Positions 31,994 to 57,381 of a DNA stretch of 64,000 nt are shown in pieces. The DNA comes from Chloroflexia bacterium. Its GTDB lineage: Bacteria > Chloroflexota > Chloroflexia > DTKN01. The stretch is from assembly GCA_034436115.1 (NCBI GenBank), contig DAOTVY010000015.1, forward strand, positions 19,276-83,275, read 5' to 3'. The translations under genes were made by a program, and so were the position numbers. The first letter of the stretch is position 1. The number at the start of each line of letters is the position of its first letter. The notes below the pieces were generated by a model, which saw nothing but the letters and a program-made list of their open reading frames with translations, was not told where the DNA came from and made no database searches.

Positions 31994-32911
31994 TCAGATA
32001 CGCTTGTAGGCCTCGAGGAATCCTCTGCGGTTCATCTCGGCGATCTGGCGCCAGATCGCGGCTGGCTCCACGCCATCGGGGGGAAGATTGGCCCGAAACA
32101 CCGCCTCTGCGGCAAGCTCAGGACCTATGGAACGCGCCAAGCTGTCCCATTCCCGCAACGTCGCCTCCAGCCGTTCGAGCACGCTTTCGGGCTCCCACGA
32201 AACGCCGTAATGCGTGAAGCAGATGCCGCGTGGCCGGCGAGCCCGCAGGAATTCCAGGGACCAGAGCATCGCCGCTGGATCGAAGGCCGGAGGGACGGTG
32301 ACCGGACGCAGGAGGGAGCGATCCGGCAGGCGTACCCCGGCCGCATCTCCGGAGAACAGGAGGCCGGCGTGGGGAGCCTCATAGGCGACATGGTCTCGGG
32401 AATGGCCGGGCGTCGGGATCGCTTTCAGCCGTACGCCGCCTCCCAGGTCGAGCTCGATCTCCTCCGCTGCGAGCATCCGCTCGGGCGAGAGCGGCTCAAC
32501 GGTGCCGTACAGGGGAAAGAGTGTTCCCACCGCTTCGGAAACGCCCGCAAGCAACCGGGAAGGGTCCACCAGGTGACGATGGGAGCGGGAGTGGATCACC
32601 ACCTTGGCCCCGGGGAGGATCCGGGCCAGATGGCCGGCTGCGCCGGCGTGGTCCAGATGGACGTGCGTGCAGACGATGTAGCGCACGGCTTCGCGCGGGA
32701 TCCCCAGGCGGTCGAGGCCTTCCAGGATCCGGGGCACTGCGTGCGAGGTCCCCACCTCCACCAGCGCTACCGCATCCGCACCCTGCACGATATAGCAGGC
32801 GCCGTAACGCGGCAGACCCAAGAGGTGCAAATCCAATCCCTGAACGCCATCGGCAACCGGAAAGATCGATGCGGATTCATCCGGCTGCGAAGTCGCGCGA
32901 TCCGGTATCAT
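31994..32911 (-). CDS. MBL-fold metallo-hydrolase
   Basis: [33 protein letters not shown]; start overlaps the pcm stop. Confidence 0.9.
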
Positions 32912-46511: not shown

Positions 46512-46540
46512 TTGACAGCGGGCAAAGCCTGTGATATCAT
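46512..46540 (+). promoter_or_regulatory. Promoter of tRNA-Asp
   Basis: TTGACA-17-TATCAT with extended TG. Confidence 0.85.
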
Positions 46541-46550
46541 ACGCGGTGCT

Positions 46551-46624
46551 GGGGCCGTGGTGTAGAGGCCTAACATGCAGCCCTGTCAAGGCTGAGATCG
46601 GGGGTTCGAATCCCCTCGGCCCCG
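46551..46624 (+). tRNA. tRNA-Asp (anticodon GTC)
   Basis: Acceptor GGGGCCG/CGGCCCC, anticodon arm CAGCC-CTGTCAA-GGCTG, T arm GGGGG-TTCGAAT-CCCCT; CCA not encoded. Confidence 0.97.
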
Positions 46625-46625
46625 C

Positions 46626-46657
46626 AAGGGCGGGCCTTTATGGCTCAGCCCTTTTTT
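46626..46657 (+). terminator. Terminator after tRNA-Asp, overlapping the citE stop
   Basis: AAGGGCGGGCC/GGCTCAGCCCTT hairpin followed by a T tract. Confidence 0.6.
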
Positions 46658-47522
46658 CTTCCTCCAGTTGCTCGGCCAGCGCCAGGAGCCGCCGCGCGCG
46701 CTCGACGATCGGCCGATCGATCATCTTGCCGTCGAGCGCGATTGCCCCGCGTCCCTCGCGCTCGGCCTCCTCAAACGCCGCCAACACGCGACGCGCCTCC
46801 GCGACCTCCGCTTCGCTTGGGGAAAGCAGGCGGTTCACCACCGGGACCTGTCGAGGATGGATCACCTGCTTGGCCCGATACCCCAGCTGCCGCCCGACGG
46901 TCGTGTTGTGCACCAGGCCTGCCTCGTCGTCGATCCGCGGATAGACCATGTCGATCGGCTGCACCCCAGCGGCGCGGGCCGCAAGGACCACCAGTTGCCG
47001 TGCCACCAGCAACTCCGTGGCTTCCTCGGTACGCATCATCCCGGCATCGAGCGAGAGATCCTCCCCGCCGAAGATCAGCCCGACCACCCGCGGATCCGCT
47101 GAGGCGATGGCGTAAGCATTCAGTACGCCCAGCGCGGTCTCGATCGTCGCCAGGATCCCCAGCGGCTCGGCGATCCCGCGTTCCTTCTCTGCCTCGGCCA
47201 GCCACGCGATCACCGTCCGCAACCCCTCGGCATCCTGCACCTTGGGAAGGCAAAGCCCGGCCAAGCCCGGCTGCACGACGGCCGCGATGTCCTCCTGGGC
47301 AAGTCCGCTGCCGTGGGCGTTCACGCGGACAAAAACGGTCCGCGCACCCTCGAGGATCTGTGGCAGCATCTCGCGCACCAGGCTGCGCGCGGCCGCCTTT
47401 TCGGGAAGGGGGACCGAGTCCTCCAGGTCAAGGATTAGCGCATCCGCACCGAGGCTGGGTGCCTTGGCGAGCATGTTAGGCCGGTTTCCCGGGACATACA
47501 GGAGCGTTCGCAGCAGGCGCAT
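46638..47522 (-). CDS. citE: CitE-family (citryl-/malyl-/citramalyl-CoA) lyase
   Basis: RTLLYVPGNR, DALILDLEDSV, FVRVN, LPKV, TIETALG, FGGED, IHPRQV, GKMIDRP; ATG 47522. Confidence 0.92.
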   Translation of the reverse strand: MRLLRTLLYVPGNRPNMLAKAPSLGADALILDLEDSVPLPEKAAARSLVREMLPQILEGARTVFVRVNAHGSGLAQEDIAAVVQPGLAGLCLPKVQDAEGLRTVIAWLAEAEKERGIAEPLGILATIETALGVLNAYAIASADPRVVGLIFGGEDLSLDAGMMRTEEATELLVARQLVVLAARAAGVQPIDMVYPRIDDEAGLVHNTTVGRQLGYRAKQVIHPRQVPVVNRLLSPSEAEVAEARRVLAAFEEAEREGRGAIALDGKMIDRPIVERARRLLALAEQLEEEKRAEP

Positions 47523-47526
47523 GGGG

Positions 47527-47745
47527 CTACTCCTCGTAGAGCTTGTGCAGGCGCAGCGCGCCCGATGGGCACTGCTCCAGGCACAAACCACACAGCGTGC
47601 ACTCGTCCTCGTTCGCCGGATCGGTCAGGAGTTCGTTTCCCTCCAGACGGAAAACGTCCACCGGGCAAACGCGCACGCAAGTTCCACAAGCGTCTGGCCG
47701 GGGGCAGCGCGCGTGGTCCACTTCCAGGCGGATGAACAGGCCCAC
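47527..47745 (-). CDS. 2x[4Fe-4S] ferredoxin
   Basis: GTG 47745: CPRPDACGTCVRVCP and CTLCGLCLEQCP; 72 aa. Confidence 0.9.
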   Translation of the reverse strand: MGLFIRLEVDHARCPRPDACGTCVRVCPVDVFRLEGNELLTDPANEDECTLCGLCLEQCPSGALRLHKLYEE

Positions 47746-47746
47746 T

Positions 47747-48661
47747 TCAGACCTCCTTGGCTGCCCGATCGAGGGCCTCGCGTACGAGCGCGGGCACCTC
47801 CGAGAGGCGCTGAGCCACGAGCACCCCGGCCGCGCGCAGAGCACGCTCCTTGCTCTCCACCCGGCCACGGTCCCCTTCCACGAGCACCGCGGCGTGCCCG
47901 AAGCGTTGTCCGGGCATCCGGTCCACAAATCGGCCAGCCAGGAAGGCCACGACCGGCAACCGAGGACGGTGGGTAGCCACATACTCGGCCAGCGCTTCTT
48001 CCTGCACACCGCCCGGTTCTCCGAACACAACCACGGCTCTTGTGTCGGGGTCGCCCTCCAAGAGGGGCATCAGGTCGACGAAGGTGGTCCCGACGAGTGG
48101 GTCTCCTCCGATGCTCACGCAGATGCTCTGGCCAAGGCCCGACTGCGTGAGGAGGCTCGCCAGTTCGGTGGTCATCCCGCCGCTTCGGGAAAGCACTGCC
48201 ACGGGGCCCGGGGTATAAGCGCGTCGTACATCTTGCGCCGGGCCCCCGACCATGCCGATCTTGACCTTGCCCGGAAGGAGGATTCCCAAGCTGTTGGGGC
48301 CGATGATCCGGGCACCTCGGTGCCGCGCCCAGGCGATGACCTCGGCAACATCTCGCCGGGGAATGCGCTCCGTGACGATGACCAGCAGCCTCAGCCCGTG
48401 TTCCAGCGCCTCCAGCGCCGCTTCCCGAACGGCCGCCGGCGGGACGCTGATTACGGATGCCTCAGCCGGGTGCTCCCGAAGCGCCTGCGCCAGGCTATCG
48501 TACACCGGTACGCCGTAGACCGTGGTACCGCCCTTACCCGGGGTTACCCCGGCAACCACCTGGGACCCATAGTCCAGCATGTGCCGGGTAAAGGTCACGG
48601 CTTCGCGCCCGGTGATCCCTTGGACGACGATACGGGTGGATGGATCGGCCAGAACGGTCAT
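47747..48661 (-). CDS. ADP-forming acid--CoA ligase alpha subunit (SucD/CcsB family)
   Basis: IVVQGITGRE, VAGVTPGKGG, IIGPNSLG, LSRSGGMTTE, SIGGDP, phospho-His FGHAA; ATG 48661 overlaps the beta-subunit stop. Confidence 0.9.
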   Translation of the reverse strand: MTVLADPSTRIVVQGITGREAVTFTRHMLDYGSQVVAGVTPGKGGTTVYGVPVYDSLAQALREHPAEASVISVPPAAVREAALEALEHGLRLLVIVTERIPRRDVAEVIAWARHRGARIIGPNSLGILLPGKVKIGMVGGPAQDVRRAYTPGPVAVLSRSGGMTTELASLLTQSGLGQSICVSIGGDPLVGTTFVDLMPLLEGDPDTRAVVVFGEPGGVQEEALAEYVATHRPRLPVVAFLAGRFVDRMPGQRFGHAAVLVEGDRGRVESKERALRAAGVLVAQRLSEVPALVREALDRAAKEV

Positions 48662-49860
48662 GCCGAACGACTCCTTTCCACCGCCAGGCGTGCCGCCTCG
48701 TCGATGGAAACGCTGCGGTCGCAGAAAGCGATCCCATAGCGGCGCAGGATCTTGGTGCCCTCGTCTTCCCACGCGCCCGGGATGCGAAAGACGGCGATCG
48801 TTTCGCTCGGATCGAGGCCCAGATCCACGATTCCGGCGATGACGCCGCGTGCCACCAAGTCAACCCGCGTGTTGCTGACCACGTTCATGATGACGGCCAG
48901 GCGACGCACGCCAGGTTTGGAGAGGATGTGGCGCGTCAGCGCACGGATCTTGCGCACGCTCGGGTTGCCTCCGATCTCGCAGTAGTTCGCCGGCCGGCCC
49001 CCATGGGCCAGGATCGCGTCGAACACTGTCAGGCTCGCACCGCCTCCTCCGATGAGCAAGCCCAGGTTGCCATCGAACTCGACCACCCGCCCGGCCACAC
49101 CCCGGTGGTCCATCGCATCGATCTCCGCCGCCGCCTGCTCGAAGGGGGTCGGAGGGCGGACAGCCGTGGGCCGCGGGACAATGCCATAGACCTTGCTGAG
49201 CTCCGGATGGCGCCCGAGCGCTTCATCCTCCAGCTCGATGTGGGCGTCGAGCGCAAGGAGCTTCCCCTCGCCCATCCGTCGCAGCGGGTTGACTTCTGCT
49301 ACGGTGGCGTCGAAGCGATAGAACAGCTCGTAGAGCCGGCGAACTGCGTCCCCGAAAGCGAGCAGGTCCGGGCCCTGCAGCGACAGGGCGGCTGCGACCT
49401 CCCGGCCCTTGTAGCCGCCGAACGGCCAAGCCATGTCGACCGGGATACGCACCAGGCCCGTGGGTGCCTCCGCGGCTGCCTGCTCGACGTCCACGCCACC
49501 CTCCAGACTGGCCAGGATGACGGGCGACCGGAGGTACGAGTCGTAGGTCACCGCGAGGAACCACTCCGGCCCGTCCGGCACCGCGGCCTCGACCAGCAGC
49601 TCCTCCACGCGATAACCCAGGAGCTCCGCGCCGAGGAGCTCCGCCGCGACCTGCCCCGCCTCCGTAGCCGTGTGGGCGGAGCGCACACCGCCGGCTTTCA
49701 TGCGCCCACCGCGAGGCACCTGGATTTTGAGCACCACCGGCAAACCCAGGCGCTCCGACGCTTCCTGGGCTGCCTCGGGTGTGCGCACACGCACGCCTTC
49801 AGGGACAGGGATCCCTTGCTCCTTCAACAGCACTTTCGCTTCCCATTCACACAACCGCAT
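48658..49860 (-). CDS. ADP-forming acid--CoA ligase beta subunit (SucC/CcsA family, citryl-CoA-synthetase-like)
   Basis: MRLCEWEAKVLL, KIQVPRGGRMKAGGV, EVNPL, ALDA; substrate loop IGGGGASL, ANYCEIGGNP, ILSKPGV, NTRVD; ATG 49860. Confidence 0.88.
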   Translation of the reverse strand: MRLCEWEAKVLLKEQGIPVPEGVRVRTPEAAQEASERLGLPVVLKIQVPRGGRMKAGGVRSAHTATEAGQVAAELLGAELLGYRVEELLVEAAVPDGPEWFLAVTYDSYLRSPVILASLEGGVDVEQAAAEAPTGLVRIPVDMAWPFGGYKGREVAAALSLQGPDLLAFGDAVRRLYELFYRFDATVAEVNPLRRMGEGKLLALDAHIELEDEALGRHPELSKVYGIVPRPTAVRPPTPFEQAAAEIDAMDHRGVAGRVVEFDGNLGLLIGGGGASLTVFDAILAHGGRPANYCEIGGNPSVRKIRALTRHILSKPGVRRLAVIMNVVSNTRVDLVARGVIAGIVDLGLDPSETIAVFRIPGAWEDEGTKILRRYGIAFCDRSVSIDEAARLAVERSRSA

Positions 49861-49862
49861 CT

Positions 49863-50579
49863 TCACGCTCCGAGGCTTCCAGACTTGCCCTGGACAGCCG
49901 GACGATCCCCCAGCAGCTCGCGCCCCCGCGCCACAAGGCGGGTCAGCGGGATCTGCTTGGGGCAGCTGGCCTCCCACCGCTGGGCAGCCTCTGGGGAAAG
50001 GAGGCCTGCCTGCTCCAGGACCCACAGGCGCACCGGACCGAGGAGATCCCTGGGATCCAGAGCAAAGCGGACGCCCTGGGCCAGCGCCGCCGGATTGGGC
50101 GCCGTGCTGCCACCGGCACCGGCCTGGCATGCCCCGCACAGGATGCACAACGCCCCATCCATGGCCGCTTCCACCGTCGTTTGCTCCATCGTTCCGCCAT
50201 AGTCGGGACGGCGCAGAAGCCAGGGGAGAAAAGCGCGCAGCGATTCGAAAAACGGGTCGATGTCCACCACCAGGTCTCGCAGGACAGGAAAGCCCGGAAG
50301 AGGGCCGATGGAAAGGGAGCCCGAAGGATCGAGGACTTCCGGCACCCGGGTCATACAGGCGAGGCGGGGATGGCCGTTGATGGCGACGGCGCAGGAACCG
50401 CAGATGCCGCTGCGACAGGATCGACGAAAGGCCAGGGTGGCGTCGTGCAGGTCCCGGACCTCGAGCAAGAGATCGAGCACGGTCGAGGTCGGGGAGATCG
50501 TCAACCGGAAGCATTGCCAGTACGGCTCGCGGTCCCGGGTGGGGTCAAAGCGTTGTACCAGGAGGTCGAGCGGGGTCAT
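49863..50579 (-). CDS. sdhB: Succinate dehydrogenase/fumarate reductase iron-sulfur subunit, atypical
   Basis: FRRSCRSGICGSCA...LAC ([2Fe-2S]), VLRDLVVD, CILCGAC, SCPKQIP; [3Fe-4S] cysteines absent; ATG 50579. Confidence 0.88.
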   Translation of the reverse strand: MTPLDLLVQRFDPTRDREPYWQCFRLTISPTSTVLDLLLEVRDLHDATLAFRRSCRSGICGSCAVAINGHPRLACMTRVPEVLDPSGSLSIGPLPGFPVLRDLVVDIDPFFESLRAFLPWLLRRPDYGGTMEQTTVEAAMDGALCILCGACQAGAGGSTAPNPAALAQGVRFALDPRDLLGPVRLWVLEQAGLLSPEAAQRWEASCPKQIPLTRLVARGRELLGDRPAVQGKSGSLGA

Positions 50580-50580
50580 C

Positions 50581-52260
50581 TCAGTACTTCCTCCCTGCCG
50601 GCAGGAAACGGGTGATCGACACCGGTCGTTTTTCCAGCACGGGGCCAGCGGGCGAACGACGCGCGATGGTGTGGACCAGCCAGTGCTCGTCGGCGCGCTC
50701 CGGCCAGTCGGTGCGACAGTGGGCCCCGCGGCTCTCGCAACGGTAGAGCGCGCTCGCGGCAATGACTCGGGCAATCTCCAGCAGATGCCCGCACTCGAGG
50801 TACTCTACCACGGCATAGTTGAAACGGGGAGGCCCTGGATCGAGGCGGATTCCCTGGAAGGTTTGCTGGAGGCGTTCGATCTCCTGGCAGGCGGATTCCA
50901 ATCCAGAGGCATCCCGGAAAATCCCCACCTGGTCGGTCATCAGCTGGTTCAGCGCCTTGCGCACGGCGGCGACTGGCTCCCCACGGGCGCCGGAGCAGAT
51001 GCGCCGCAATTCCGACTCCCAGCGGTCGACCGCCCCCTGGATGCTCTCCGCACTCCCCCAAGGCCGTTCGCGGGCAATTTCGGCCGCCCGGCCCCCTGCA
51101 CGCTTGCCAAAGACCCAGGCATCGAGCAGCGAGTTTCCTCCGAGCCGGTTGGCGCCATGGACGCTGACATTGGCGCACTCCCCGGCGGCAAGCAGGCCCG
51201 GGATCTCCGTCTCTCCCCAGGTGTTGCAACGGATCCCGCCCATACTATAGTGCGCGGCCGGCTCGACCGGCAGGGGATGGTGCGCGATGTCAATGCCGGC
51301 GTAAGTGAGCGCCAGCTGCCGTACCTGAGGAAGACGGGCATCGATCTGATCCGCACCCAGATGCGTGAGGTCGAGGGCGACGTAGCCTTCCCCCAACCCA
51401 CGCCCTTCCAGGATCTCGCGGGCGATCGCCCGCGAGACAACATCCCGGGGGGCGAGTTCCATCGCCTCAGGCGCATAGCGCGCCATGAAGCGCTCCCCAT
51501 TGCGGTTCCGAAGGTAGCCTCCCTCTCCCCGGGCCGCCTCGGAGATCAGGATGTTCTTACCGTATAGGCTTGTCGGATGGAACTGCACGAACTCCATGTC
51601 CGCCAGGGGCGCCCCGGCGCGGTAGGCGATGGCCACCCCATCGCCGGTGCAGGCATGGGCGTTGGTCGTCTTGGCATAGACCCGACCATAACCGCCTGTC
51701 GCGAGCACAACTGCTTTGGCGCGGAACCCGTCCAAACGGCCGTTCGCCAGATCCAGGACGACCACACCTTGACAGCCCCGGTCGTCCACCACGAGATCGA
51801 GCAGATGTTGCTCGGGGTAAACGCGTACGCCCCGGCAAAGCAGCTGCTGGTAGAGGCTATGAAGCGCCAGGTGCCCGGTGTAGTCGGCCGCAAAGCAGGT
51901 ACGCGGGAAGCCGGCACCACCGAGGGAGCGCTGGGCGATCCGGCCATCCGGCGTGCGGGAGAAGAGCACGCCCATCTCCTCCAGCTCGGCGATCGCCGCA
52001 GGCCCTTCCTGGCAGAGGATCTCAATCGCTTCCTGATCTCCCAGGTAATCGCTTCCTTTCACCGTGTCCAGGATATGGCGCTCGATGCTGTCGTCCGCCC
52101 CCAACGCGGCGTTGATCCCGCCCTGGGCGGCGCCGCTGTGGGAACGGGTGGGATAGAGCTTGGAGACGACGCCGACGTCCGCGCCGGCACGCAGTGCCTC
52201 CAGTGCTGCCCGCAGGCCGGCCAACCCGGCACCGATGATCAGCACCTCGTGGTGATGCAT
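50581..52260 (-). CDS. sdhA: Succinate dehydrogenase/fumarate reductase flavoprotein subunit
   Basis: [22 protein letters not shown] (covalent-FAD His), [46 protein letters not shown]. Confidence 0.93.
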
Positions 52261-52385
52261 ATGCCCTCCTGACGCGCGTTGGAAGCCGGTGACCCCCTTG
52301 CACGCACGCGCCCGAGGAGCTCAAGCAGTGGAGGGCGGCCAGGACCCCGGCCACCCGGGAGCCTCAAAGCCGCCCTCCACAGCGA

Positions 52386-52424
52386 CCCCGCAACCCTGCC
52401 CCGCGTGGGCGGATGCTTGCGGGG
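52386..52424. repeat. GC-rich inverted repeat after the lactonase gene
   Basis: CCCCGCAA (52386-52393) / TTGCGGGG (52417-52424); no U tract on the minus strand. Confidence 0.75.
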
Positions 52425-52427
52425 ATC

Positions 52428-53213
52428 CTACTCGTAGTACTCCGGCGCGTGCTTCAGCTTCGGCCAGGAATCGGGGTCGTGGCTGGTAATCACCTTCACC
52501 CCGTAGACCCGGCGCAGGTTCCGGATCCGCTTGACCGACTTGACCACATCCGGCGGGCTGTAGACCAACCCCGGCAGGACATCCTCGTTCAGGATCTCCT
52601 CGGTGTAGATCAGGTCGCCGGTCAGGAGCATCGGGCCGCTCTTCTCGAGGTTCACCAGGAGCGACTGGTGGCCCGGAGTATGGCCCGGGGTAAAGAGGAT
52701 CTTGATCTTCCCGTCGCCGAAGACGTCGTACTCGTCCTCCTGGAAGCCCTCGAGCAGGTACCAGTTCAGGTAAGGCTTGTCAAAGTCGGCGCGGATGTAA
52801 GCCCCCCTCTGGTAAAAGTCCGGCACGTAGGCGTACTGCAGCTCGGCCCGCTGCACAAAGTAGATGGCGTTCGGGAACGCACCGCAGCCGCCGGCGTGGT
52901 CCAAATGCAGATGGGAGAAGATGACGTGGGTGATGTCCTCCGGCTTGACCCCGATCTTGGCGAGCTGGTTAACCACATACTCGTCTTCCCGCATCACGGG
53001 GTCGTAGGCCGCGACTACCGCCGCGCCCCAGTGCTTGATCTTGTCGCGGGCAACTTCCAGCGCATTGCCCGTGTCGAAGAGCACCTTGCCCTTTTCGTGC
53101 TCGATGAGATAGAAGGGCACCGGGACGTCGAACGGCACGCCGACTCCGCGGCCCATGGTGAAGAGGTGTTTCTGGCTCTTGAGGATCCCGCACTGGAACA
53201 TGTAGAGCTTCAT
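52428..53213 (-). CDS. Lactonase of the AiiA/AttM(BlcC) metallo-beta-lactamase family
   Basis: VLFDTG, SHLHLDHAGG (HxHxDH), TPGHTPGHQS, LLTGDLIY (AiiA-type Asp and Tyr), VITSHDP; ATG 53213 behind AGGAG. Confidence 0.88.
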   Translation of the reverse strand: MKLYMFQCGILKSQKHLFTMGRGVGVPFDVPVPFYLIEHEKGKVLFDTGNALEVARDKIKHWGAAVVAAYDPVMREDEYVVNQLAKIGVKPEDITHVIFSHLHLDHAGGCGAFPNAIYFVQRAELQYAYVPDFYQRGAYIRADFDKPYLNWYLLEGFQEDEYDVFGDGKIKILFTPGHTPGHQSLLVNLEKSGPMLLTGDLIYTEEILNEDVLPGLVYSPPDVVKSVKRIRNLRRVYGVKVITSHDPDSWPKLKHAPEYYE

Positions 53214-53306
53214 CGCACTCCTCCTTCTCGCATCCGCCGGGTCTTCCCCGGGGCAACCGGGAAACTGCCACCGGGTTGCCACCCCATTGTCAGCCTCCAG
53301 ACCTCC

Positions 53307-53798
53307 TTACGCCTTCTTGGGCGCGAGCCACGCGGGGATCATGACCGACACGTAGCCGAGCAGGATACCGACAAAGAGCCCGATCAGCGTGTAGAGGATG
53401 TTCTGGAAGGAGAAGAAATTGTCGGTCTTGAACTGGCCGAAGGTGAACGCGAAGAAGGCGGCGAAAGCACAGAAGGCAGCACTGGCCAGTTCCAGAGGCT
53501 TCCAGTTCATGAGGAGCACGAGCACCAGGGCGCAGATCCCCACGAGGATCGAGATGCCTACGAAGCCAAGTTCGCCTCCGAGCTTGAGCCCGTAGAGCGC
53601 CACGTGCCCGAGAAGCACACCGAGGAGCATGGGGAAGCCGGCCTTGAGGATCGCCGCGGCGTTGCTGCCCGCGACGAAGAAGAAGGCCCACCCGATAAAG
53701 CCCGCCCACGTGGGGAGCTTCAGTTTGATGGACACGTAAGTCCACAGGGCGGCCAGGATACCGATGCTGATGGACAGCGCCACGTACTTGAGGCGCAT
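53307..53798 (-). CDS. DUF1097-like membrane protein
   Basis: 163 aa, five to six TM helices; ALSISIGILAALW, WAGFIGWAFFF, LIGLFVGILLGYVS. Confidence 0.7.
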   Translation of the reverse strand: MRLKYVALSISIGILAALWTYVSIKLKLPTWAGFIGWAFFFVAGSNAAAILKAGFPMLLGVLLGHVALYGLKLGGELGFVGISILVGICALVLVLLMNWKPLELASAAFCAFAAFFAFTFGQFKTDNFFSFQNILYTLIGLFVGILLGYVSVMIPAWLAPKKA

Positions 53799-53822
53799 CT
53801 CTCCTCCTCCTTGCGCTGAGAA

Positions 53823-55106
53823 CTACCAGAGCACCATCGACTCGCGGAAGATCCGGGCCAGGTCCTCCTTCGTCACCGGGCGCGGGCAGCCAACCAGCAA
53901 ACGCTGCTGTTTCCAGCCGCCTTCTACCAGGCCAGGGATATCGTCCTCCGTATATCCCAACGCCGCAAGGCCGTTCGGGCATCCGATGTCCCGCATCAGC
54001 TGGATCAGCGCCTCGGGTAGCTTCATCGCGGCCTCCATCGGCGAAAGCCCGGAGATGTTGGCTCCAAGCAGCTCGGCGATGCGGGCGTGCTTCTCCGGGT
54101 TCGTCGGAGCCGTGAAGCGGAACGCCGCGGGCGCGGTCAGCACGACGGACAGCCCGTGCGGAACCAGGGCTTCCTCTACGGGGTACTCGCTCGGCTTCCA
54201 CTCACGGATCATGCCCGCGATCGGGTAGCCCAGGGCGTGCGGGATGTGAACCCCTGCGTTCCCGAAGCCGATGCCCGCAAAGGTCGCTGCCATAGCCATG
54301 TAGCTGCGCGCCTCGAGGTCATTGCCATTGTAGCAGGCCCGGCGCAGGTACTTCCCGACCCACTCGATCGCCTTCTCGCTCCAAAGGTCCGCGATCGGGT
54401 TCGACCCCACATAGGCCGGCCGCAAGCTTGGATCCTCTGGTTTCGGCCGCGTGTTGTAGGGTTTGCTCGTGAACGACTCGGCAGCGTGGGTCAGCACATC
54501 CAGCCCGGTAAAGGCCGTGACCTGAGGCGATTGCGTGATCGCGTTCAGCGGGTCGACGATGGCCATTGTCGGGCGGATGTTCACGTGCGAGATGCCCGTT
54601 TTCACCTTCAGCTGGAGGAGGTCCAACACGATCACCGGTGTCGTTTCGCTGCCGGTGCCGGTGGTTGTGGGAAGCGCAAAGTGGGGCTTTAGCGGACCGG
54701 GAACGAGCTTTCCCTGGCCGATCGGTTTGTTGATATAATCGAAAAGATCGGCGGGGTAGGTGTTGAAGAGGTTCATCGCCTTGGCGGTATCGATCGTGCT
54801 CCCGCCGCCCAGGGAGACGAAGGCGTCGTAGACCTCGTCCCCGACCGCCTGGATCGCCGCGCGGAAGGAGACGTCTGTGGGCTCGATGTGCACCTCATCG
54901 TAGATGCGCAGCTGGATCCCCTCGCGCTCGATGATCTGCTTCACGCGGTCGATCAGCCCATACTGCCAGAGGTTCTTATCGGCCACGAGCAGCACTTTCT
55001 TGGCGCCGAGGATCCGCAGTTCGTAGCCCAGTTCCTCGGTAGCCCCGATCCCAAACTTGAGCTTGCCCATGGAGAGAGGGATGACGGTTTCTAGCTCGAC
55101 GGACAT
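53823..55106 (-). CDS. Hydroxyacid-oxoacid transhydrogenase (ADHFE1/HOT-type Fe-alcohol dehydrogenase)
   Basis: KFGIGATEELGY, EPTDVSF, GGGSTIDTAKA, PTTTGTGSETT, GLDVLTHAAES, RPAYVGSNPIAD, GNAGVHIPHALGYPIAG, VPHGLSV, QQRLL. Confidence 0.88.
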   Translation of the reverse strand: MSVELETVIPLSMGKLKFGIGATEELGYELRILGAKKVLLVADKNLWQYGLIDRVKQIIEREGIQLRIYDEVHIEPTDVSFRAAIQAVGDEVYDAFVSLGGGSTIDTAKAMNLFNTYPADLFDYINKPIGQGKLVPGPLKPHFALPTTTGTGSETTPVIVLDLLQLKVKTGISHVNIRPTMAIVDPLNAITQSPQVTAFTGLDVLTHAAESFTSKPYNTRPKPEDPSLRPAYVGSNPIADLWSEKAIEWVGKYLRRACYNGNDLEARSYMAMAATFAGIGFGNAGVHIPHALGYPIAGMIREWKPSEYPVEEALVPHGLSVVLTAPAAFRFTAPTNPEKHARIAELLGANISGLSPMEAAMKLPEALIQLMRDIGCPNGLAALGYTEDDIPGLVEGGWKQQRLLVGCPRPVTKEDLARIFRESMVLW

Positions 55107-55231
55107 CGCTGCACCTCCTGACTGGAGCTTATATCCGCGTGCGATGCCCCAACGGCACCGCCCCGAGCTTGCCGGGCTCCTGAACCATCGGGCACCTGCC
55201 TCCTTCCGGCTCCTCAGCCCTGAAACTCAGG

Positions 55232-55292
55232 GCACCTATCGATCACCGCAGACACTCGTGCCACGCCGATTGCCGCGACGCACCTATCGATC
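55232..55292. repeat. 13-bp direct repeat upstream of the transhydrogenase gene
   Basis: GCACCTATCGATC at 55232-55244 and 55280-55292 (48-bp period). Confidence 0.9.
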
Positions 55293-55365
55293 CATTCTCC
55301 CTTGGGGCTCCCTGGAGGCATCCACCAGGGTCTGCCCGGCGGCCATACCTGCAAAGGGATATAGG

Positions 55366-57111
55366 TTAGGACGATGGCCTCTCCCAGCCACGCCGGTCAT
55401 AGTACTCGCGGACCATTTTCTCCAGTTCCTCGGGGGTCAAGCGCTCGCCGCTGGGCTGGATCGGTTCACGCAAGAGGCGCTCCGGGAGCGTGTCGTCGGC
55501 CGGAACCATGCCCTCACGCAGGTTGTAGGATCGGATCAGGTTGGCGATGCGCGCCGAAAGGGCCTGCAACCCAGCCTTGTCGAGCTCCAACCCCGTCAAG
55601 CCCCGGATGATGCGGGGCAGGTCGTCCCAGCCGATCATATCCCGGTAAAAGCGGCAGAAGATCAGCGTATCAAAGACCGTGTGGCGGTCTTCAAAGTCGA
55701 GCACCAAGTCCGCCTTGCCCTCAGCCGTCGTCCGATCGACCCAACCGGCCAGCTCGGCCTTGTACACGGTAGCCCGCAGATGACAGGCACCGCGATCCGA
55801 GATCGCATAGGCCAGGCCCATGCCTTTGAGCCCACGGGGGTCATACCCAGCCGGCTCGAGCCCCTTGACGTGGATCGCCAGTTCCTCCAGCCCCAGCTGC
55901 CGCGCGGCCGAACGCACGCCTCCGGCAAAGATTTCCCCTATGCCCTCGCGCGCGGCGACCTTCCGCAGCAACTCGGCGATCCCGTCCACATCTCCATAAT
56001 CCAGCCCGAGGTCGAGGACACCCCGACGACAAGCCTCGATTGCCAGGCCCGCGACGTTGCCCCCGGTGATCGTGTCCAGCCCCAGGCGGTCGCACAAGTC
56101 GTTCAGGTAGAGGATTTCGGCGAGGTCGTCCACCCCGCACAGGCCGCCGAACGCGTAGATGGTCTCGTATTCCGGGCCCTCGACCGTCAGCCCGGCGTGC
56201 CGACCGTCCGGAACCGTAACCAGCTTGCCACAGGCAAAGAAGCAGCGGTAGCAGGCCTTGGGACGAGGCTGGAAACGCTCGACCAGTGCATCGCCGCTGA
56301 TCTGCGCCCAGTGGGGAACCGTGCCCGCAGACCAGTAGTAGCTGGGGAAAGCACCGGCGCGGTTCGTGAGCGCCACCACCATCGGTGTCCCGAACTTCCG
56401 GTAGTTGGCCGCGCCGGCGTCCGTCTTGCCCCGTTCCCGCAGTTCGCGGTCGTAGGCGGCGATGTCCTCAGGGTCGAAAAGCTGGCACTCTGCCCGGCCG
56501 TGGAAGACGATGCCCTTGACCTTCTTCGAGCCGAGCACGGCCCCCATACCGACGCGCCCGGCCTGCCGGCCGCGGTCGTTTCCCACCAGGGCAAAGCGCA
56601 CCAGGCGCTCGCCGGCGGGCCCGATGACCATCGCCTTCGCGCCGGGGATCCCCACATCCTTCTCCAGTGCCTCCTCCGCCGCATAGGCGTCCAACCCCCA
56701 GAATGGCCGCGCATCGTGAAAGGTTACCCCAGCGTCCGAGATCTCCAGATAGATGGGGTCGCTCGATGCCCCCCGGATGACGATCGCGTCGTAACCCGTC
56801 GCCTTGATCTGGGGAGCAATGTGGCCGCCAGAAGCCGACTCGCCAAAGATGCCCGTCTGCGGGGATTTGCTGATCAGGATGTAGCGGCTTGCCGGAGCCA
56901 GGACCGTGCCGGTGGCAGGACCGGTGGTGACGATGAGCGGGTTTTCGGGGGAAAGGGGATCCACTCCACGAGGGGCATACTGGGAAAGGAGATACGCACC
57001 GAGGCCCTTCCCACCCAGGTAGTCTCTCAGCACCTCCTCCGCCACGGCCTCCGCCCGAAAGTTCCGTTCCGACACGTCCACGTGCAGGATCCGTCCGTGG
57101 AAGCCCAGCAT
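55366..57111 (-). CDS. Aldehyde:ferredoxin oxidoreductase (tungstopterin AOR family)
   Basis: GGKGLG, KSPQTG, ESASGG, IGPAGE, GMGAVLGSKKVKG, CYRCFFAC, EGPEYET, GLDTI, RGACHL; ATG 57111 behind GGAGG. Confidence 0.93.
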   Translation of the reverse strand: MLGFHGRILHVDVSERNFRAEAVAEEVLRDYLGGKGLGAYLLSQYAPRGVDPLSPENPLIVTTGPATGTVLAPASRYILISKSPQTGIFGESASGGHIAPQIKATGYDAIVIRGASSDPIYLEISDAGVTFHDARPFWGLDAYAAEEALEKDVGIPGAKAMVIGPAGERLVRFALVGNDRGRQAGRVGMGAVLGSKKVKGIVFHGRAECQLFDPEDIAAYDRELRERGKTDAGAANYRKFGTPMVVALTNRAGAFPSYYWSAGTVPHWAQISGDALVERFQPRPKACYRCFFACGKLVTVPDGRHAGLTVEGPEYETIYAFGGLCGVDDLAEILYLNDLCDRLGLDTITGGNVAGLAIEACRRGVLDLGLDYGDVDGIAELLRKVAAREGIGEIFAGGVRSAARQLGLEELAIHVKGLEPAGYDPRGLKGMGLAYAISDRGACHLRATVYKAELAGWVDRTTAEGKADLVLDFEDRHTVFDTLIFCRFYRDMIGWDDLPRIIRGLTGLELDKAGLQALSARIANLIRSYNLREGMVPADDTLPERLLREPIQPSGERLTPEELEKMVREYYDRRGWERPSS

Positions 57112-57166: not shown

Positions 57167-57195
57167 AATATAGCACAGGAGGCGGAGAAAAGCAA
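57167..57195 (-). promoter_or_regulatory. Promoter of the AOR cluster
   Basis: TTGCTT-17-TATATT with extended TG. Confidence 0.65.
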
Positions 57196-57381
57196 CCGCC
57201 AGGATGATCGAGCAAGCGCCTGCGTCGGCGTTGCTTTCCGAAAACGTTTGCACTGCGGGATATTTCTCACACTTTTTCGTGCTTTCCGCGGATCTTTCAC
57301 CGGCCCGTGACCCGCTCGTTCCGAAGACAGGATCTCGCCCTGGCCGGCCCGCGCAACCGGTCCGTGCCACAGGCTGTGCCG

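What the first reader, a model, noticed from the sequence alone, without database searches (positions are those of the whole stretch)
46638..57111. The two modules may form one 10.5-kb, ten-gene redox-balanced catabolic system
Seen: all ten genes are on the minus strand, bounded by a promoter at 57167-57195 and by tRNA-Asp; the 167-bp gap before sdhA has a U-less hairpin and no clear promoter. Inference: the upper module makes a di- or tricarboxylate plus reduced ferredoxin; the lower module oxidises or reduces it (SdhAB), activates it (ligase) and cleaves it (CitE), with the encoded ferredoxin linking AOR to SdhAB. Candidate substrates include butyrolactone, methyl-butyrolactones (via citramalyl-CoA) or carboxy-lactones such as paraconate or isocitrate lactone. 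No hydratase is in the window.
Basis: inference. Interest (0 to 1): 0.7.

Follow-up and report, generated by a model that had tools for sequence, protein, structure and literature searches.

The report
Two catabolic modules fused in Chloroflexia
Ten same-strand genes are really there, but they are two separable units (a lactone-to-dicarboxylate module and a dicarboxylate-splitting module) that lie side by side only in two related hot-spring Chloroflexia, so a single integrated pathway is plausible but unproven.

Summary
Ten minus-strand genes lie at 46638-57111, with one recognisable promoter (57167-57195), a convergent tRNA-Asp, and a 167-nt gap before sdhA that holds a U-less hairpin.

Upper module: AOR, a HOT-like Fe-ADH, a DUF1097 membrane protein and an AttM-like lactonase. 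It is an analogue of the Agrobacterium blcABC route (gamma-butyrolactone to succinate), with a tungsten-type AOR in place of the NAD-dependent semialdehyde dehydrogenase.

Lower module: six genes packed within -4 to +4 nt. They encode a soluble SdhAB whose SdhB has lost all three [3Fe-4S] ligands, a CcsA-like ADP-forming CoA ligase, a ligase-associated ferredoxin-like protein, and a CitE/CLYBL-like lyase.

The modules are independently distributed. The upper one stands alone in an Anaerolineae MAG. The ligase-Fdx-CitE core occurs in about 80 genomes across several phyla without it. There its usual neighbours are RipB/Ich-like hydratases, acyl-CoA dehydrogenases and MmgE/PrpD proteins, which suggests branched C5-dicarboxylate (itaconate/methylsuccinate-type) catabolism.

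All ten genes are joined only here and in one related Chloroflexia MAG. The ferredoxin belongs to the ligase unit and is not an evident AOR-SdhAB link.

Verdict: partly supported. This is a new variant of known pathways, of moderate interest.

The parts
57167..57195 (-). Sigma-70-type promoter TTGCTT-N17-TATATT upstream of the AOR gene. It is the only recognisable promoter for the cluster.
   Evidence: Sequence read; coordinates. The -35 and extended -10 are conserved (TTGACC ... TGTTATAAT) in L018. The scanner did not flag it because the -35 matches 3 of 6.
57240..57249 (-). Conserved AAACGTTTTC block containing the palindrome AAACGTTT, about 45 nt upstream of the -35. Candidate regulator site.
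   Evidence: Conserved between the window and L018 inside otherwise diverged DNA. It is unique in the cluster, and no copy lies before sdhA. Absent upstream of the AOR gene in L178.
55366..57111 (-). Aldehyde:ferredoxin oxidoreductase (581 aa), tungsten/molybdopterin AOR family. Proposed semialdehyde-to-carboxylate step that reduces ferredoxin.
   Evidence: PF02730 and PF01314 at E 1e-71 and 6e-114. Full-length match to P. furiosus AOR 1aor (E 2e-111) and to 9mqx. 90% identical in L018 and 77% in L178.
55107..55365 (-). 259-nt AOR-ADH spacer with a 13-nt direct repeat GATCGATAGGTGC (55232-55244 and 55280-55292). No ORF and no Rfam family.
   Evidence: Fold not significant (z = -1.6). In L178 an acyl-CoA dehydrogenase gene occupies this position, but no remnant of it is detectable here.
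53823..55106 (-). Iron-containing alcohol dehydrogenase (427 aa) of the HOT-like (hydroxyacid-oxoacid transhydrogenase) subfamily. Proposed 4-hydroxy-acid to semialdehyde step.
   Evidence: PF00465 and PF25137. 48-51% identical over the full length to proteins annotated 'hydroxyacid-oxoacid transhydrogenase' on Rhodococcus, Mycobacterium and Deinococcus plasmids. Only 31% identical to Agrobacterium BlcB. HOT oxidises 4-hydroxybutyrate to succinate semialdehyde (PMC7801405).
53307..53798 (-). DUF1097 membrane protein (163 aa). A conserved member of the upper module and a possible substrate permease (inference).
   Evidence: PF06496, E 4e-25. Same position in L018 (94% identical) and in L178 (70%).
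52428..53213 (-). AttM/BlcC-like metallo-beta-lactamase-fold lactonase (261 aa). Proposed ring-opening step.
   Evidence: NF045700 AttM family at 334.7 bits, below the 390 cut-off, covering 1-257 of 257 positions. 48.5% identical over the full length to A. tumefaciens AttM. The HLHLDHAGG metal motif is invariant in the family alignment.
52261..52427 (-). 167-nt junction between the modules. It forms three hairpins; the central 13-bp GC stem is at 52328-52380 and is not followed by a U-tract. Probably an attenuator/terminator or an mRNA-stability element.
   Evidence: MFE -102.9 kcal/mol, z = -4.0. A hairpin in the same position but of different sequence in L018 ends about 20 nt before the sdhA ribosome-binding site. 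A comparable U-less hairpin ends the stand-alone module in L178.
50581..52260 (-). SdhA/FrdA-type flavoprotein (559 aa), cytoplasmic, with the dicarboxylate-binding and covalent-FAD residues present.
   Evidence: TIGR01812 at 731 bits, above the 567 cut-off. The motifs RSHS..AAQGG, HPT, RDVVSR, HYSMGG and [11 protein letters not shown] are read directly in the sequence.
49863..50579 (-). SdhB-like iron-sulfur subunit (238 aa). It keeps the [2Fe-2S] ligands and the four [4Fe-4S] ligands but lacks all three [3Fe-4S] ligands. No membrane-anchor gene is present.
   Evidence: Alignment to 6lum_B and 9fq7: CILCGACQAGA in place of CxxCxxCxxxCP, and only ...SCP in the third motif. About 97 database clusters share the trait, whereas canonical SdhBs keep CxxCxxCxxxCP.
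48658..49860 (-). Large (ATP-grasp) subunit of an ADP-forming dicarboxylate-CoA ligase (400 aa). It is CcsA-like (citryl-CoA synthetase-like) rather than SucC-like in its C-terminal domain.
   Evidence: PF08442 plus PF16114 (Citrate_bind), with no PF00549. Below the cut-offs for SucC and MtkA. The family profile shares an insert and motifs with H. thermophilus CcsA 6hxq_B that are absent from SCS 3ufx_B.
47747..48661 (-). Small (CoA-binding, phosphohistidine) subunit of the ligase (304 aa). Its start overlaps the LigB stop by 4 nt.
   Evidence: PF02629, PF00549 and PF13607. sucD models score 288-293 bits, below the cut-offs of 336-353. The motif FGHAA, the counterpart of the catalytic GHAGA histidine, is read.
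47527..47745 (-). 72-aa 2x[4Fe-4S] ferredoxin-like protein belonging to a ligase-associated family.
   Evidence: Fer4 Pfam hits. Homologues follow LigA, or CitE, in 54-69 of 80 LigB loci across several phyla. Motifs are conserved; 8 Cys here, 4 Cys in 51 of 69 homologues.
46638..47522 (-). CitE/HpcH-family acyl-CoA C-C lyase (294 aa). Closest solved relative is human CLYBL, a citramalyl-CoA lyase.
   Evidence: PF03328. TIGR01588 at 258 bits (cut-off 443) and RipC at 167 (cut-off 375). PDB 5vxc CLYBL at E 6e-52, and 1sgj.
46551..46625 (+). tRNA-Asp(GTC), convergent with the cluster, marking its downstream boundary. Synteny with L018 ends here.
   Evidence: ARAGORN and Rfam. In L018, MTTB genes follow CitE instead. 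The blastn alignment ends at 46668.

Best explanation
The locus is a composite of two evolutionarily separable catabolic modules. They sit head-to-tail in a narrow Chloroflexia lineage and most likely work in series.

Upper module (inferred from homology):
1. An AttM-like lactonase opens a gamma-butyrolactone-type lactone.
2. A HOT-like Fe-ADH oxidises the resulting primary omega-hydroxy acid to a semialdehyde.
3. A tungsten-type AOR oxidises the semialdehyde to a succinate-type dicarboxylate and reduces cellular ferredoxin.
4. DUF1097 may import the substrate.

Lower module (a tight six-gene operon):
1. A soluble, anchor-less SdhAB with only [2Fe-2S] and [4Fe-4S] clusters interconverts the (alkyl)succinate and the corresponding (alkyl)fumarate.
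2. A CcsA-like ADP-forming ligase makes a dicarboxyl-CoA thioester.
3. A hydratase encoded elsewhere supplies the 2-hydroxyacyl-CoA.
4. A CitE/CLYBL-like lyase splits it into acetyl-CoA plus a 2-oxo acid: pyruvate if the substrate is methyl-branched, glyoxylate if unbranched, oxaloacetate if carboxymethyl.

Gene neighbourhoods of relatives tie the ligase/lyase core to branched C5-dicarboxylate (itaconate, mesaconate, methylsuccinate) catabolism. A methyl-substituted lactone giving methylsuccinate is therefore as likely a substrate as plain GBL giving succinate.

Transcription probably starts at the single promoter upstream of the AOR gene. It is attenuated, not necessarily stopped, at the conserved junction hairpin.

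Shown: gene content, family membership, loss of the cluster ligands, and distribution. Inferred: substrates, the direction of SdhAB, co-transcription, and carbon flow between the modules.
For: - Gene calls and families.
- The lactonase is 48.5% identical to AttM, whose operon converts GBL to succinate via GHB and SSA (PMC3907764).
- An Fe-ADH gene sits directly upstream of the lactonase gene in many relatives, as in attL-attM.
- The ADH is HOT-like (PMC7801405). The AOR is full-length and 1aor-like.
- An independent metagenomic locus (L100) joins ADH, AttM-like lactonase and AOR to a CoA-transferase, a GABA aminotransferase-type enzyme and SucCD. This ties the trio to C4 metabolism and to CoA activation of the product.
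- In L178 the stand-alone upper module carries an acyl-CoA dehydrogenase, which is another desaturation function attached to the lactone genes.
- The lower six genes are spaced -4 to +4 nt apart.
- SdhA passes TIGR01812. SdhB lacks the [3Fe-4S] ligands, a trait shared by the whole subfamily.
- The LigB family has CcsA-type motifs.
- In 80 LigB loci the common neighbours are CitE (56), a RipB/Ich-like MaoC hydratase (46), acyl-CoA dehydrogenase (24) and MmgE/PrpD proteins (7). This mirrors the Ict/Ich/Ccl/Mcd/Msi itaconate-methylsuccinate cluster (PMC12290011).
- All ten genes are retained in the same order in L018/L011 at dS of about 1, while downstream synteny is lost.
- No promoter-like site lies in the junction, and in L018 the hairpin ends about 20 nt before the sdhA ribosome-binding site.
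Against: - The modules occur apart in every other genome examined. Their adjacency could simply be inherited synteny between two fairly close genomes, whose upstream flanks are also syntenic.
- The junction hairpin resembles the hairpin that ends the stand-alone module in L178, so it may be a terminator.
- No hydratase is encoded in the cluster or in the window.
- Succinate needs no special pathway in an organism with a TCA cycle.
- None of the specific equivalog models (AttM, 4-hydroxybutyrate dehydrogenase, SucC/D, MtkA, CitE, RipC, malyl-CoA lyase) reaches its curated cut-off. Substrates are therefore not established.
- The electron partner of the two-cluster SdhAB is unknown.
- The role of the ligase-associated ferredoxin-like protein is unexplained.
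Confidence: 0.4

Rival explanations
1. There are two functionally independent operons that merely lie next to each other. The lactone module ends at its own U-less hairpin terminator. The SdhAB-ligase-Fdx-CitE operon has an unrecognised promoter and serves a different substrate, for example environmental itaconate, mesaconate or methylsuccinate.
For: - Each module is found alone elsewhere.
- A hairpin of the same kind ends the stand-alone module in L178.
- The two genomes that share the fusion also share upstream flanks, so synteny alone could explain the adjacency.
- No shared operator motif precedes sdhA.
- GC content differs between the modules: about 0.61-0.66 upper against 0.65-0.68 lower.
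Against: - No promoter-like site lies in the 167-nt gap.
- In L018 only about 20 nt separate the hairpin from the sdhA ribosome-binding site.
- The junction survived at dS of about 1 while synteny immediately downstream of CitE was lost.
- L100 and L178 independently attach CoA-activation or desaturation genes to the lactone genes.
Confidence: 0.3
2. The link between the modules is redox rather than carbon. SdhAB works as a soluble, ferredoxin-dependent fumarate, mesaconate or itaconate reductase. It re-oxidises the ferredoxin reduced by AOR, acting as a fermentative electron sink. The ligase and lyase supply or process the ene-dicarboxylate.
For: - A low-potential 2x[4Fe-4S] ferredoxin can donate to the fumarate/succinate couple (+30 mV; quoted in PMC3578206) but cannot accept from it (established thermodynamics).
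- SdhB lacks the quinone-proximal [3Fe-4S] cluster, and there is no membrane anchor.
- Relatives of the two-cluster SdhAB sit next to a small ferredoxin (L016/17) or a flavin-reductase-domain protein.
- Itaconate reduction to methylsuccinate as an anaerobic electron sink is documented (PMC12290011 discussion).
- AOR implies an oxygen-limited lifestyle.
Against: - The ferredoxin in this cluster belongs to the ligase-associated family. That family is also present in aerobic Actinomycetota and in loci without SdhAB or AOR.
- The flavin-site residue is Gln (AAQGG), as in E. coli SdhA rather than FrdA. This is recalled from memory and is a weak indicator.
- No source of the ene-dicarboxylate is encoded in the cluster.
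Confidence: 0.15
3. The lower module is a two-step ATP-dependent citrate-cleavage system. A CcsA/B-like citryl-CoA synthetase works with CitE, which replaces the citrate-synthase-like lyase Ccl. This is paired with a fumarate reductase (a reductive TCA branch or citrate fermentation), or it follows SdhAB-catalysed tricarballylate-to-aconitate oxidation. Either way it is unrelated to lactones.
For: - The LigB family shares CcsA-specific motifs and has a PF16114 citrate-binding hit.
- A 56%-identical LigBA pair in a Tectomicrobia MAG is followed by a short citrate-synthase-like Ccl (L009).
- The best NCBIfam hit of CitE is citrate lyase beta.
- PEPCK is a frequent neighbour, in 29 of 80 loci.
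- A TctC/TctB tricarboxylate transporter lies near one two-cluster SdhAB.
Against: - No Ccl gene is present in any of the 80 best genome loci.
- The commonest neighbours are RipB/Ich-like hydratases and acyl-CoA dehydrogenases, which point to C5 CoA esters.
- The MmgE/PrpD neighbours score far below the PrpD cut-offs.
- CitE is below the CitE cut-off, and its closest solved relative is the citramalyl-CoA lyase CLYBL.
Confidence: 0.1

Closest known systems
Agrobacterium tumefaciens blcABC (attKLM) gamma-butyrolactone catabolic operon
   Same: An AttM-type Zn lactonase (48.5% identical) sits immediately downstream of an iron-containing alcohol dehydrogenase gene. The overall logic is the same: lactone to 4-hydroxy acid to semialdehyde to succinate (PMC3907764; operon map).
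   Different: The semialdehyde step uses a tungsten-type aldehyde:ferredoxin oxidoreductase in place of the NAD-dependent aldehyde dehydrogenase BlcA. The ADH belongs to the HOT-like subfamily and is only 31% identical to BlcB. A DUF1097 membrane protein is inserted. There is no IclR/BlcR repressor gene nearby.
Itaconate/methylsuccinate degradation cluster of Pseudomonas and Cupriavidus (Ict, Ich, Ccl, Mcd, Msi) and Yersinia RipABC
   Same: Both combine CoA activation of a C5 dicarboxylate with a CitE/HpcH-family lyase. In relatives of the lower-module core the neighbours are RipB/Ich-like hydratases, acyl-CoA dehydrogenases and MmgE/PrpD proteins, which matches the five-gene cluster (PMC12290011).
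   Different: Activation is by an ATP-dependent CcsA-like ligase instead of a CoA transferase. In this window, desaturation would occur on the free acid, by a soluble SdhAB, instead of on the CoA ester. No hydratase is encoded here. A ferredoxin-like protein is part of the unit. The RipC and RipB models are matched below their cut-offs.
Citryl-CoA synthetase / citryl-CoA lyase (CcsAB + Ccl) of Hydrogenobacter thermophilus
   Same: A two-subunit ADP-forming ligase whose large subunit shares the CcsA-specific insert and motifs, followed by a separate lyase. A 56%-identical relative is followed by a Ccl-type lyase.
   Different: The lyase here is CitE/HpcH-type, not citrate-synthase-like. The small ferredoxin-like gene has no counterpart. 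The substrate has not been shown to be citrate.
Complex II (succinate:quinone oxidoreductase / quinol:fumarate reductase) and soluble relatives such as methanogen TfrAB
   Same: An SdhA flavoprotein that passes the family cut-off and keeps the dicarboxylate-site residues, and an SdhB N-terminal [2Fe-2S] domain.
   Different: SdhB has lost the three [3Fe-4S] ligands. There is no membrane anchor and no TfrB-type heterodisulfide-reductase extension. The enzyme is therefore soluble and must use another redox partner. Relatives pair with MmgE/PrpD proteins, a small ferredoxin or a flavin-reductase domain.
Mammalian itaconate route (succinyl-CoA synthetase, hydratase, CLYBL). This rests on my own knowledge and was not checked here.
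   Same: An ADP/GDP-forming SCS-type ligase activates the dicarboxylate, and a CLYBL-type lyase cleaves citramalyl-CoA. CLYBL is the closest solved relative of this CitE.
   Different: This is a bacterial operon with a dedicated CcsA-like ligase, an Fe-S protein and SdhAB.

Membership tests
blcABC/attKLM gamma-butyrolactone operon | AttM/BlcC-type metallo-beta-lactamase-fold lactonase | tested here: inconclusive
   NF045700 at 334.7 bits against a cut-off of 390, with full-length coverage. 48.5% identical to A. tumefaciens AttM. The HxHxDH motif is present.
blcABC/attKLM gamma-butyrolactone operon | Adjacent iron-containing 4-hydroxybutyrate dehydrogenase (BlcB/AttL) | tested here: inconclusive
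   An Fe-ADH is present two genes upstream of the lactonase gene, with DUF1097 between them. It is only 31% identical to BlcB. NF058672 (4-hydroxybutyrate dehydrogenase) scores 167 against a cut-off of 500. It groups with proteins annotated as HOT, at 48-51% identity.
blcABC/attKLM gamma-butyrolactone operon | NAD-dependent succinate-semialdehyde dehydrogenase (BlcA/AttK, ALDH family) | tested here: not met
   There is no ALDH gene in the cluster. An AOR-family enzyme occupies the first position.
blcABC/attKLM gamma-butyrolactone operon | IclR-type repressor BlcR next to the operon | tested here: not met
   The flanking genes are an XPB-like helicase and an MFS transporter upstream, and tRNA-Asp and a 959-aa crystallin-repeat protein downstream.
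Aldehyde:ferredoxin oxidoreductase (AOR) family | AFOR_N plus AFOR_C domains over the full length, with the [4Fe-4S] Cys motif | tested here: met
   PF02730 and PF01314. 1aor at E 2e-111 over residues 1-578. CxxCxxxC...C is read in the sequence. Substrate specificity was not tested.
Complex II (SQR/QFR) | SdhA/FrdA flavoprotein | tested here: met
   TIGR01812 at 731 bits, above the 567 cut-off.
Complex II (SQR/QFR) | Iron-sulfur subunit with [2Fe-2S], [4Fe-4S] and [3Fe-4S] clusters | tested here: not met
   The fourth Cys of motif II and the first two Cys of motif III are absent. There are no Fer4-type Pfam hits.
Complex II (SQR/QFR) | Membrane anchor subunit(s) SdhC/D or SdhE | tested here: not met
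   No such gene is in the cluster or in the scanned window.
Citryl-CoA synthetase / citryl-CoA lyase (CCS/CCL) | CcsA-like large subunit and CcsB-like small subunit with the catalytic histidine | tested here: inconclusive
   CcsA-specific insert and motifs are shared, but overall scores to SCS-beta and to CcsA are similar. LigA has FGHAA.
Citryl-CoA synthetase / citryl-CoA lyase (CCS/CCL) | Citrate-synthase-like lyase Ccl | tested here: not met
   The lyase is HpcH/CitE family. Ccl is seen only in the more distant L009.
Citrate lyase complex CitDEF | CitE beta subunit at equivalog level, together with CitD (ACP) and CitF | tested here: not met
   TIGR01588 at 257.9 bits against a cut-off of 443.4. 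No CitD or CitF is in the cluster or window.
Succinyl-CoA synthetase SucCD / malate thiokinase MtkAB | Equivalog-level match of both subunits | tested here: not met
   SucC scores 243 against 370, MtkA 177 against 604, and SucD 288-293 against 336-353. The C-terminal domain of LigB matches PF16114, not PF00549.
Itaconate degradation (RipABC / Ict-Ich-Ccl) | Citramalyl-CoA lyase RipC/Ccl | tested here: inconclusive
   NF038242 at 167 bits against a cut-off of 375. The closest solved relative is the citramalyl-CoA lyase CLYBL.
Itaconate degradation (RipABC / Ict-Ich-Ccl) | Itaconyl-CoA hydratase (MaoC) and a CoA transferase in the cluster | tested here: not met
   Neither is present in the cluster or window. 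A RipB/Ich-like MaoC gene is present in 46 of 80 related LigB loci.
Serine-cycle / 3-HP-bicycle malyl-CoA lyase | Mcl-type L-malyl-CoA/beta-methylmalyl-CoA lyase | tested here: not met
   NF041626 at 56.6 bits against a cut-off of 500. The PDB malyl-CoA lyases are weaker matches than CLYBL.

The most novel reading that the evidence does not exclude
The lower module encodes two uncharacterised enzyme forms.

1. A cytoplasmic, anchor-less, two-cluster SdhAB that exchanges electrons with ferredoxin-type carriers. It would act as an (alkyl)fumarate/itaconate reductase or an (alkyl)succinate dehydrogenase.
2. A three-component dicarboxylate-CoA ligase in which a dedicated small Fe-S protein is an obligatory subunit or redox switch.

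Fused to the AOR-containing lactone module, the ten genes would then carry out a ferredoxin-mediated internal redox coupling. Lactone oxidation would drive ene-dicarboxylate reduction without the respiratory chain.
Probability: 0.12. Interest if true: 0.7.

Novelty: new variant of a known kind. Interest (0 to 1): 0.45.

Why it matters
If the reading is right, three things follow.

- Thermophilic Chloroflexota degrade butyrolactone-type compounds by a ferredoxin-linked (AOR) version of the classical blc pathway.
- Branched or unbranched C4-C6 dicarboxylates are then split by a ligase-based counterpart of the itaconate/methylsuccinate pathway.
- Two widespread but unstudied protein groups are brought into view. 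One is an SdhB subfamily that has lost the [3Fe-4S] cluster, which implies a soluble enzyme. The other is a small Fe-S protein tightly linked to a CcsA-like CoA ligase in many phyla.

Both groups are directly testable with purified proteins. They could correct routine annotation of these genes as 'succinate dehydrogenase', 'succinyl-CoA/citryl-CoA synthetase' or reductive-TCA markers in metagenome surveys.

Tried and rejected
- **Rfam over the whole window:** only the three tRNAs were found. No riboswitch or known RNA lies in the 259-nt or 167-nt gaps.
- **Consensus promoter and terminator scan:** no minus-strand promoter was found inside the cluster.
- **Is the 259-nt AOR-ADH spacer a decayed acyl-CoA dehydrogenase gene, as in L178?** No tblastn remnant was found, and the fold is not significant.
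- **Is a shared operator present before both modules?** The conserved AAACGTTTTC block is unique to the AOR promoter region and is absent from L178.
- **Do the modules have different evolutionary ages?** dS is near saturation (1.0-1.3) for nearly all genes, so higher identity of the upper module is mostly stronger purifying selection. Only the MBL gene (dS 0.38) stands out. This gives no clear evidence of separate acquisition.
- **Metagenome scan with the lactonase alignment:** it returned mostly short contigs and showed only recurrent ADH-lactonase pairs plus the L100 locus.
- **Is the L178 acyl-CoA dehydrogenase methylsuccinyl-CoA-dehydrogenase-like?** No. Its best matches are generic short-chain ACADs.
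- **Literature searches:** AOR plus lactonase plus succinic semialdehyde, SdhAB lacking [3Fe-4S], and CCS plus CitE plus ferredoxin found no description of this arrangement.
- **Assigning the ligase substrate from binding-loop residues by eye:** rejected as unreliable.
- **Membership rejected at curated cut-offs:** malate thiokinase/malyl-CoA lyase, the citrate lyase complex and canonical SucCD.

Full report
**Observation.** The window is about 65% G+C. Six-frame ORF listing and manual choice of start codons give ten minus-strand genes between 46638 and 57111, each preceded by a GGAGG-like ribosome-binding site. In order they are AOR (55366-57111), Fe-ADH (53823-55106), DUF1097 (53307-53798), MBL-fold lactonase (52428-53213), SdhA (50581-52260), SdhB (49863-50579), LigB (48658-49860), LigA (47747-48661), a 72-aa ferredoxin (47527-47745) and CitE (46638-47522).

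The promoter TTGCTT-17-TATATT lies at exactly 57167-57195. tRNA-Asp is at 46551-46625 on the opposite strand. The gap before sdhA is 167 nt and folds into three hairpins (z = -4.0). Its central 13-bp stem (52328-52380) has no U-tract after it. About 40 other ORFs of the window are housekeeping genes (PNPase, MutL, GlmS, UvrB, MgsA and others), with no hydratase and no nearby regulator.

**Operon anatomy.** Gaps inside the lower module are +1, +2, -4, +1 and +4 nt, which is the signature of a translationally coupled operon. The upper module has gaps of 259, 24 and 93 nt. No sigma-70-like site was found on the minus strand inside the cluster. No Rfam family matches either long gap.

**Upper module.** The lactonase scores 334.7 bits on the AttM equivalog model, just under the 390 cut-off. 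It is 48.5% identical over its full length to A. tumefaciens AttM/BlcC. In Agrobacterium, blcABC converts gamma-butyrolactone to succinate through gamma-hydroxybutyrate and succinic semialdehyde (PMC3907764). The annotated operon order there is SSADH, Fe-ADH, AttM, with a divergent BlcR.

An Fe-ADH gene directly upstream of an AttM-like lactonase gene recurs in many metagenomic and genomic loci. The ADH here is only 31% identical to BlcB. It is 48-51% identical to proteins annotated 'hydroxyacid-oxoacid transhydrogenase' on Rhodococcus, Mycobacterium and Deinococcus plasmids. That enzyme class oxidises 4-hydroxybutyrate to succinate semialdehyde (PMC7801405). The AOR aligns end to end with P. 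furiosus AOR (E 2e-111).

The module is therefore best read as a blc-type pathway in which an aldehyde:ferredoxin oxidoreductase replaces the NAD-dependent semialdehyde dehydrogenase. DUF1097 is a conserved membrane component of unknown role. I found no paper describing this AOR-containing version.

**Lower module.**
- *SdhA.* It passes the SdhA/FrdA subfamily cut-off (731 bits against 567). It keeps the covalent-FAD histidine and the dicarboxylate-binding residues (read).
- *SdhB.* It aligns with solved SdhBs but has CILCGACQAGA where they have CxxCxxCxxxCP, and it retains only the final Cys-Pro of the third motif. The four [4Fe-4S] ligands are kept and all three [3Fe-4S] ligands are lost. 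About 97 database clusters (Bacillota, Limnochordales, Anaerolineae, Acidobacteriota and others) share exactly this pattern, whereas more distant canonical SdhBs keep all motifs. With no anchor gene, this is a soluble two-subunit enzyme. In other genomes it sits beside an MmgE/PrpD-family protein (L014, L181), an MmgE/PrpD protein plus a small ferredoxin (L016/17), or a flavin-reductase-domain protein and an MFS transporter.
- *LigB and LigA.* They fall below the SucC, SucD and MtkA cut-offs. The LigB C-terminal half matches the ATP-citrate-lyase citrate-binding Pfam model rather than PF00549. A profile of 52 family members shares with H. thermophilus CcsA an insert and several motifs (TE.E..A.ID..DHRG.AG, GGNP, SKPG, NTR.D) that Thermus SCS-beta lacks.
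- *CitE.* It is below the citE and RipC cut-offs. Its closest solved relative is human CLYBL.

**Distribution.** The exact LigB protein occurs only in metagenome contigs of the same organism. A scan of one genome per GTDB species with the LigB alignment returned 80 loci.
- Only one carries all ten genes in the same order: a 'Chloroflexia bacterium' MAG (JBDOIE010000089; L018, the same contig as L011). Amino-acid identities are AOR 90%, ADH 93%, DUF1097 94%, MBL 98%, SdhA 82%, SdhB 78%, LigB 85%, LigA 89%, Fdx 75% and CitE 82%.
- The next relative, an Anaerolineales MAG at 72% LigB identity, has only LigB-LigA-Fdx-CitE, inside a sugar-utilisation cluster.
- Across the 80 loci, LigA is present in 75, the small Fe-S protein in 54-69, CitE in 56, a MaoC hydratase in 46, PEPCK in 29, an acyl-CoA dehydrogenase in 24, MmgE/PrpD proteins in 7, and SdhA in 6. 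Outside L018 the Sdh genes examined, in Desulfobacterales, are canonical and membrane-anchored. Upper-module genes appear in one locus only.
- The best NCBIfam match of the MaoC hydratase is RipB/Ich.
- Conversely, an Anaerolineae contig (L178) carries AOR-ACAD-ADH-DUF1097-MBL at 77, 82, 70 and 82% identity (the ACAD has no counterpart here). It is followed by unrelated genes on the other strand.
- A further locus (L100) joins ADH, lactonase and AOR to a CoA-transferase, a 3-hydroxyisobutyrate-dehydrogenase-type reductase, a class-III aminotransferase, canonical SucCD and a thiolase.

The two modules are therefore independent evolutionary units. Their fusion is confined to a small Chloroflexia clade.

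**Is the fusion meaningful?** Between the window and L011, the flanks and the lower module are 75-76% identical in DNA, ADH-DUF1097-MBL 86% and AOR 81%. dS is near saturation (1.0-1.3) for most genes, so the upper module is mainly under stronger purifying selection. Only MBL (dS 0.38) stands out. Upstream synteny (MFS transporter, XPB-like helicase) is shared, and downstream synteny ends at CitE. The promoter hexamers upstream of the AOR gene are conserved.

At the junction, L018 has a 114-nt gap. It holds a different-sequence hairpin in the same place, ending about 20 nt before the sdhA ribosome-binding site. That leaves no room for a downstream promoter. However, the stand-alone module in L178 also ends with a perfect U-less hairpin. 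Such hairpins may therefore be the terminators of these organisms. Co-transcription, probably attenuated, is plausible but undecided.

**Function of the lower module.** The neighbourhoods of the ligase/lyase core are a RipB/Ich-like hydratase, a CitE-family lyase, an acyl-CoA dehydrogenase and MmgE/PrpD proteins. The MmgE/PrpD proteins score far below the true PrpD cut-offs. This set mirrors the five-gene itaconate/methylsuccinate cluster of pseudomonads. There, the MmgE/PrpD protein is a methylsuccinate isomerase and the ACAD is a methylsuccinyl-CoA dehydrogenase (PMC12290011). Here an ATP-dependent ligase stands where that cluster has the CoA transferase.

This favours branched C5-dicarboxylates for the family. 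The generic chemistry is the same whatever the substituent: a substituted succinate is desaturated, hydrated, thioesterified, and cleaved to acetyl-CoA plus a 2-oxo acid. Counter-indications for citrate (the CcsA motifs, and a Ccl-linked relative) are kept as a rival explanation.

**The ferredoxin.** It is 62% identical to the protein at the same position in the SdhAB-less, AOR-less Anaerolineales locus. It belongs to a family with conserved MFI.VEVD, CPV(D/N)IF, DEC.LC.LC and KLY motifs. That family follows LigA or CitE in most of the 80 loci, including aerobic Actinomycetota. In 51 of 69 members it has only four cysteines, enough for one cluster. It is thus a component of the ligase unit, not an obvious AOR-to-SdhAB wire. 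Thermodynamically, a low-potential ferredoxin can only feed fumarate-type reduction; it cannot accept electrons from succinate oxidation (+30 mV; quoted). The 'redox-balanced' idea therefore survives only in its reductive form (second rival).

**Verdict.** The claim of one ten-gene system is only partly supported. These are two modular pathways, each a variant of a known kind, juxtaposed and possibly co-transcribed in one lineage. The most interesting by-products are the [3Fe-4S]-less soluble SdhAB subfamily and the ligase-associated Fe-S protein. I found neither described in the searched literature. Substrates, the direction of SdhAB, and transcription across the hairpin all need experiments.

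Noticed in passing
window 49863-50579, and about 97 related protein clusters (P0121-P0218): There is a whole SdhB subfamily (about 210-245 aa, with only PF13085) that keeps the [2Fe-2S] and [4Fe-4S] ligands but has lost all three [3Fe-4S] ligands. It is usually encoded next to SdhA and an MmgE/PrpD-family protein, sometimes with a small ferredoxin or a flavin-reductase-domain protein.
   Followed up: partly
window 47527-47745; homologues in L018-L097: A ferredoxin-like protein of about 75 aa is tightly linked to the CcsA-like ligase genes across Chloroflexota, Actinomycetota, Desulfobacterota and Binatota. Most members have four cysteines (one cluster). The window, L018, L019 and the Desulfobacterales have eight. 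No role is known for it beside a ligase and a lyase.
   Followed up: partly
window 55107-55365: The 259-nt non-coding spacer between the AOR and ADH genes carries a 13-nt direct repeat, GATCGATAGGTGC (55232-55244 and 55280-55292). In the Anaerolineae relative L178 an acyl-CoA dehydrogenase gene occupies this position. No remnant of that gene and no Rfam family was found here.
   Followed up: partly
window 57240-57249: The block AAACGTTTTC, which contains the palindrome AAACGTTT, lies about 45 nt upstream of the -35 of the AOR promoter. It is conserved in L018 inside otherwise diverged DNA. It may be a regulator binding site, but no regulator gene is nearby.
   Followed up: partly
window 52428-53213 against L011 7422-8207: The lactonase gene is 98% identical in protein and has a dS of only 0.38 between the two Chloroflexia genomes, where neighbouring genes show dS of 1.0-1.3. 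Its GC3 is 0.90. Strong codon bias or a recent exchange of this gene could explain it.
   Followed up: partly
window 52261-52320: In the predicted fold of the junction, the sdhA ribosome-binding site (CAGGAGG) pairs with an upstream CUCCUCGG segment. This third hairpin is deleted in L018, so its significance is doubtful.
   Followed up: no
window 43424-46303: A 959-aa protein with weak beta/gamma-crystallin and Inhibitor_I36 repeats lies just beyond tRNA-Asp. The related genome L018 has MTTB-family methyltransferase and peptide ABC transporter genes at this position instead.
   Followed up: no
window 46512-46540: A near-consensus promoter, TTGACA-17-TATCAT with an extended TG, lies directly upstream of tRNA-Asp. 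A bidirectional hairpin at 46632-46646 lies between the tRNA and the end of CitE.
   Followed up: no
L100 1236-13110: An anaerobic-community contig encodes Fe-ADH, an AttM-like lactonase, AOR, an acetyl-CoA hydrolase/transferase-family protein, a 3-hydroxyisobutyrate-dehydrogenase-type reductase, a class-III aminotransferase, SucC, SucD and a thiolase. This is an independent assembly of lactone, GABA and 4-hydroxybutyrate genes with an AOR.
   Followed up: partly
L009 10001-13048: A Tectomicrobia MAG has a LigB/LigA pair (56% and 62% identical) followed by a 261-aa citrate-synthase-like protein. That is a CCS/CCL-type arrangement inside the same ligase family, and it has no ferredoxin-like gene.
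   Followed up: partly
window 31994-32911: This is a second, unrelated metallo-beta-lactamase-fold protein (ODP-family hit). It lies among housekeeping genes next to a protein-L-isoaspartate methyltransferase.
   Followed up: no
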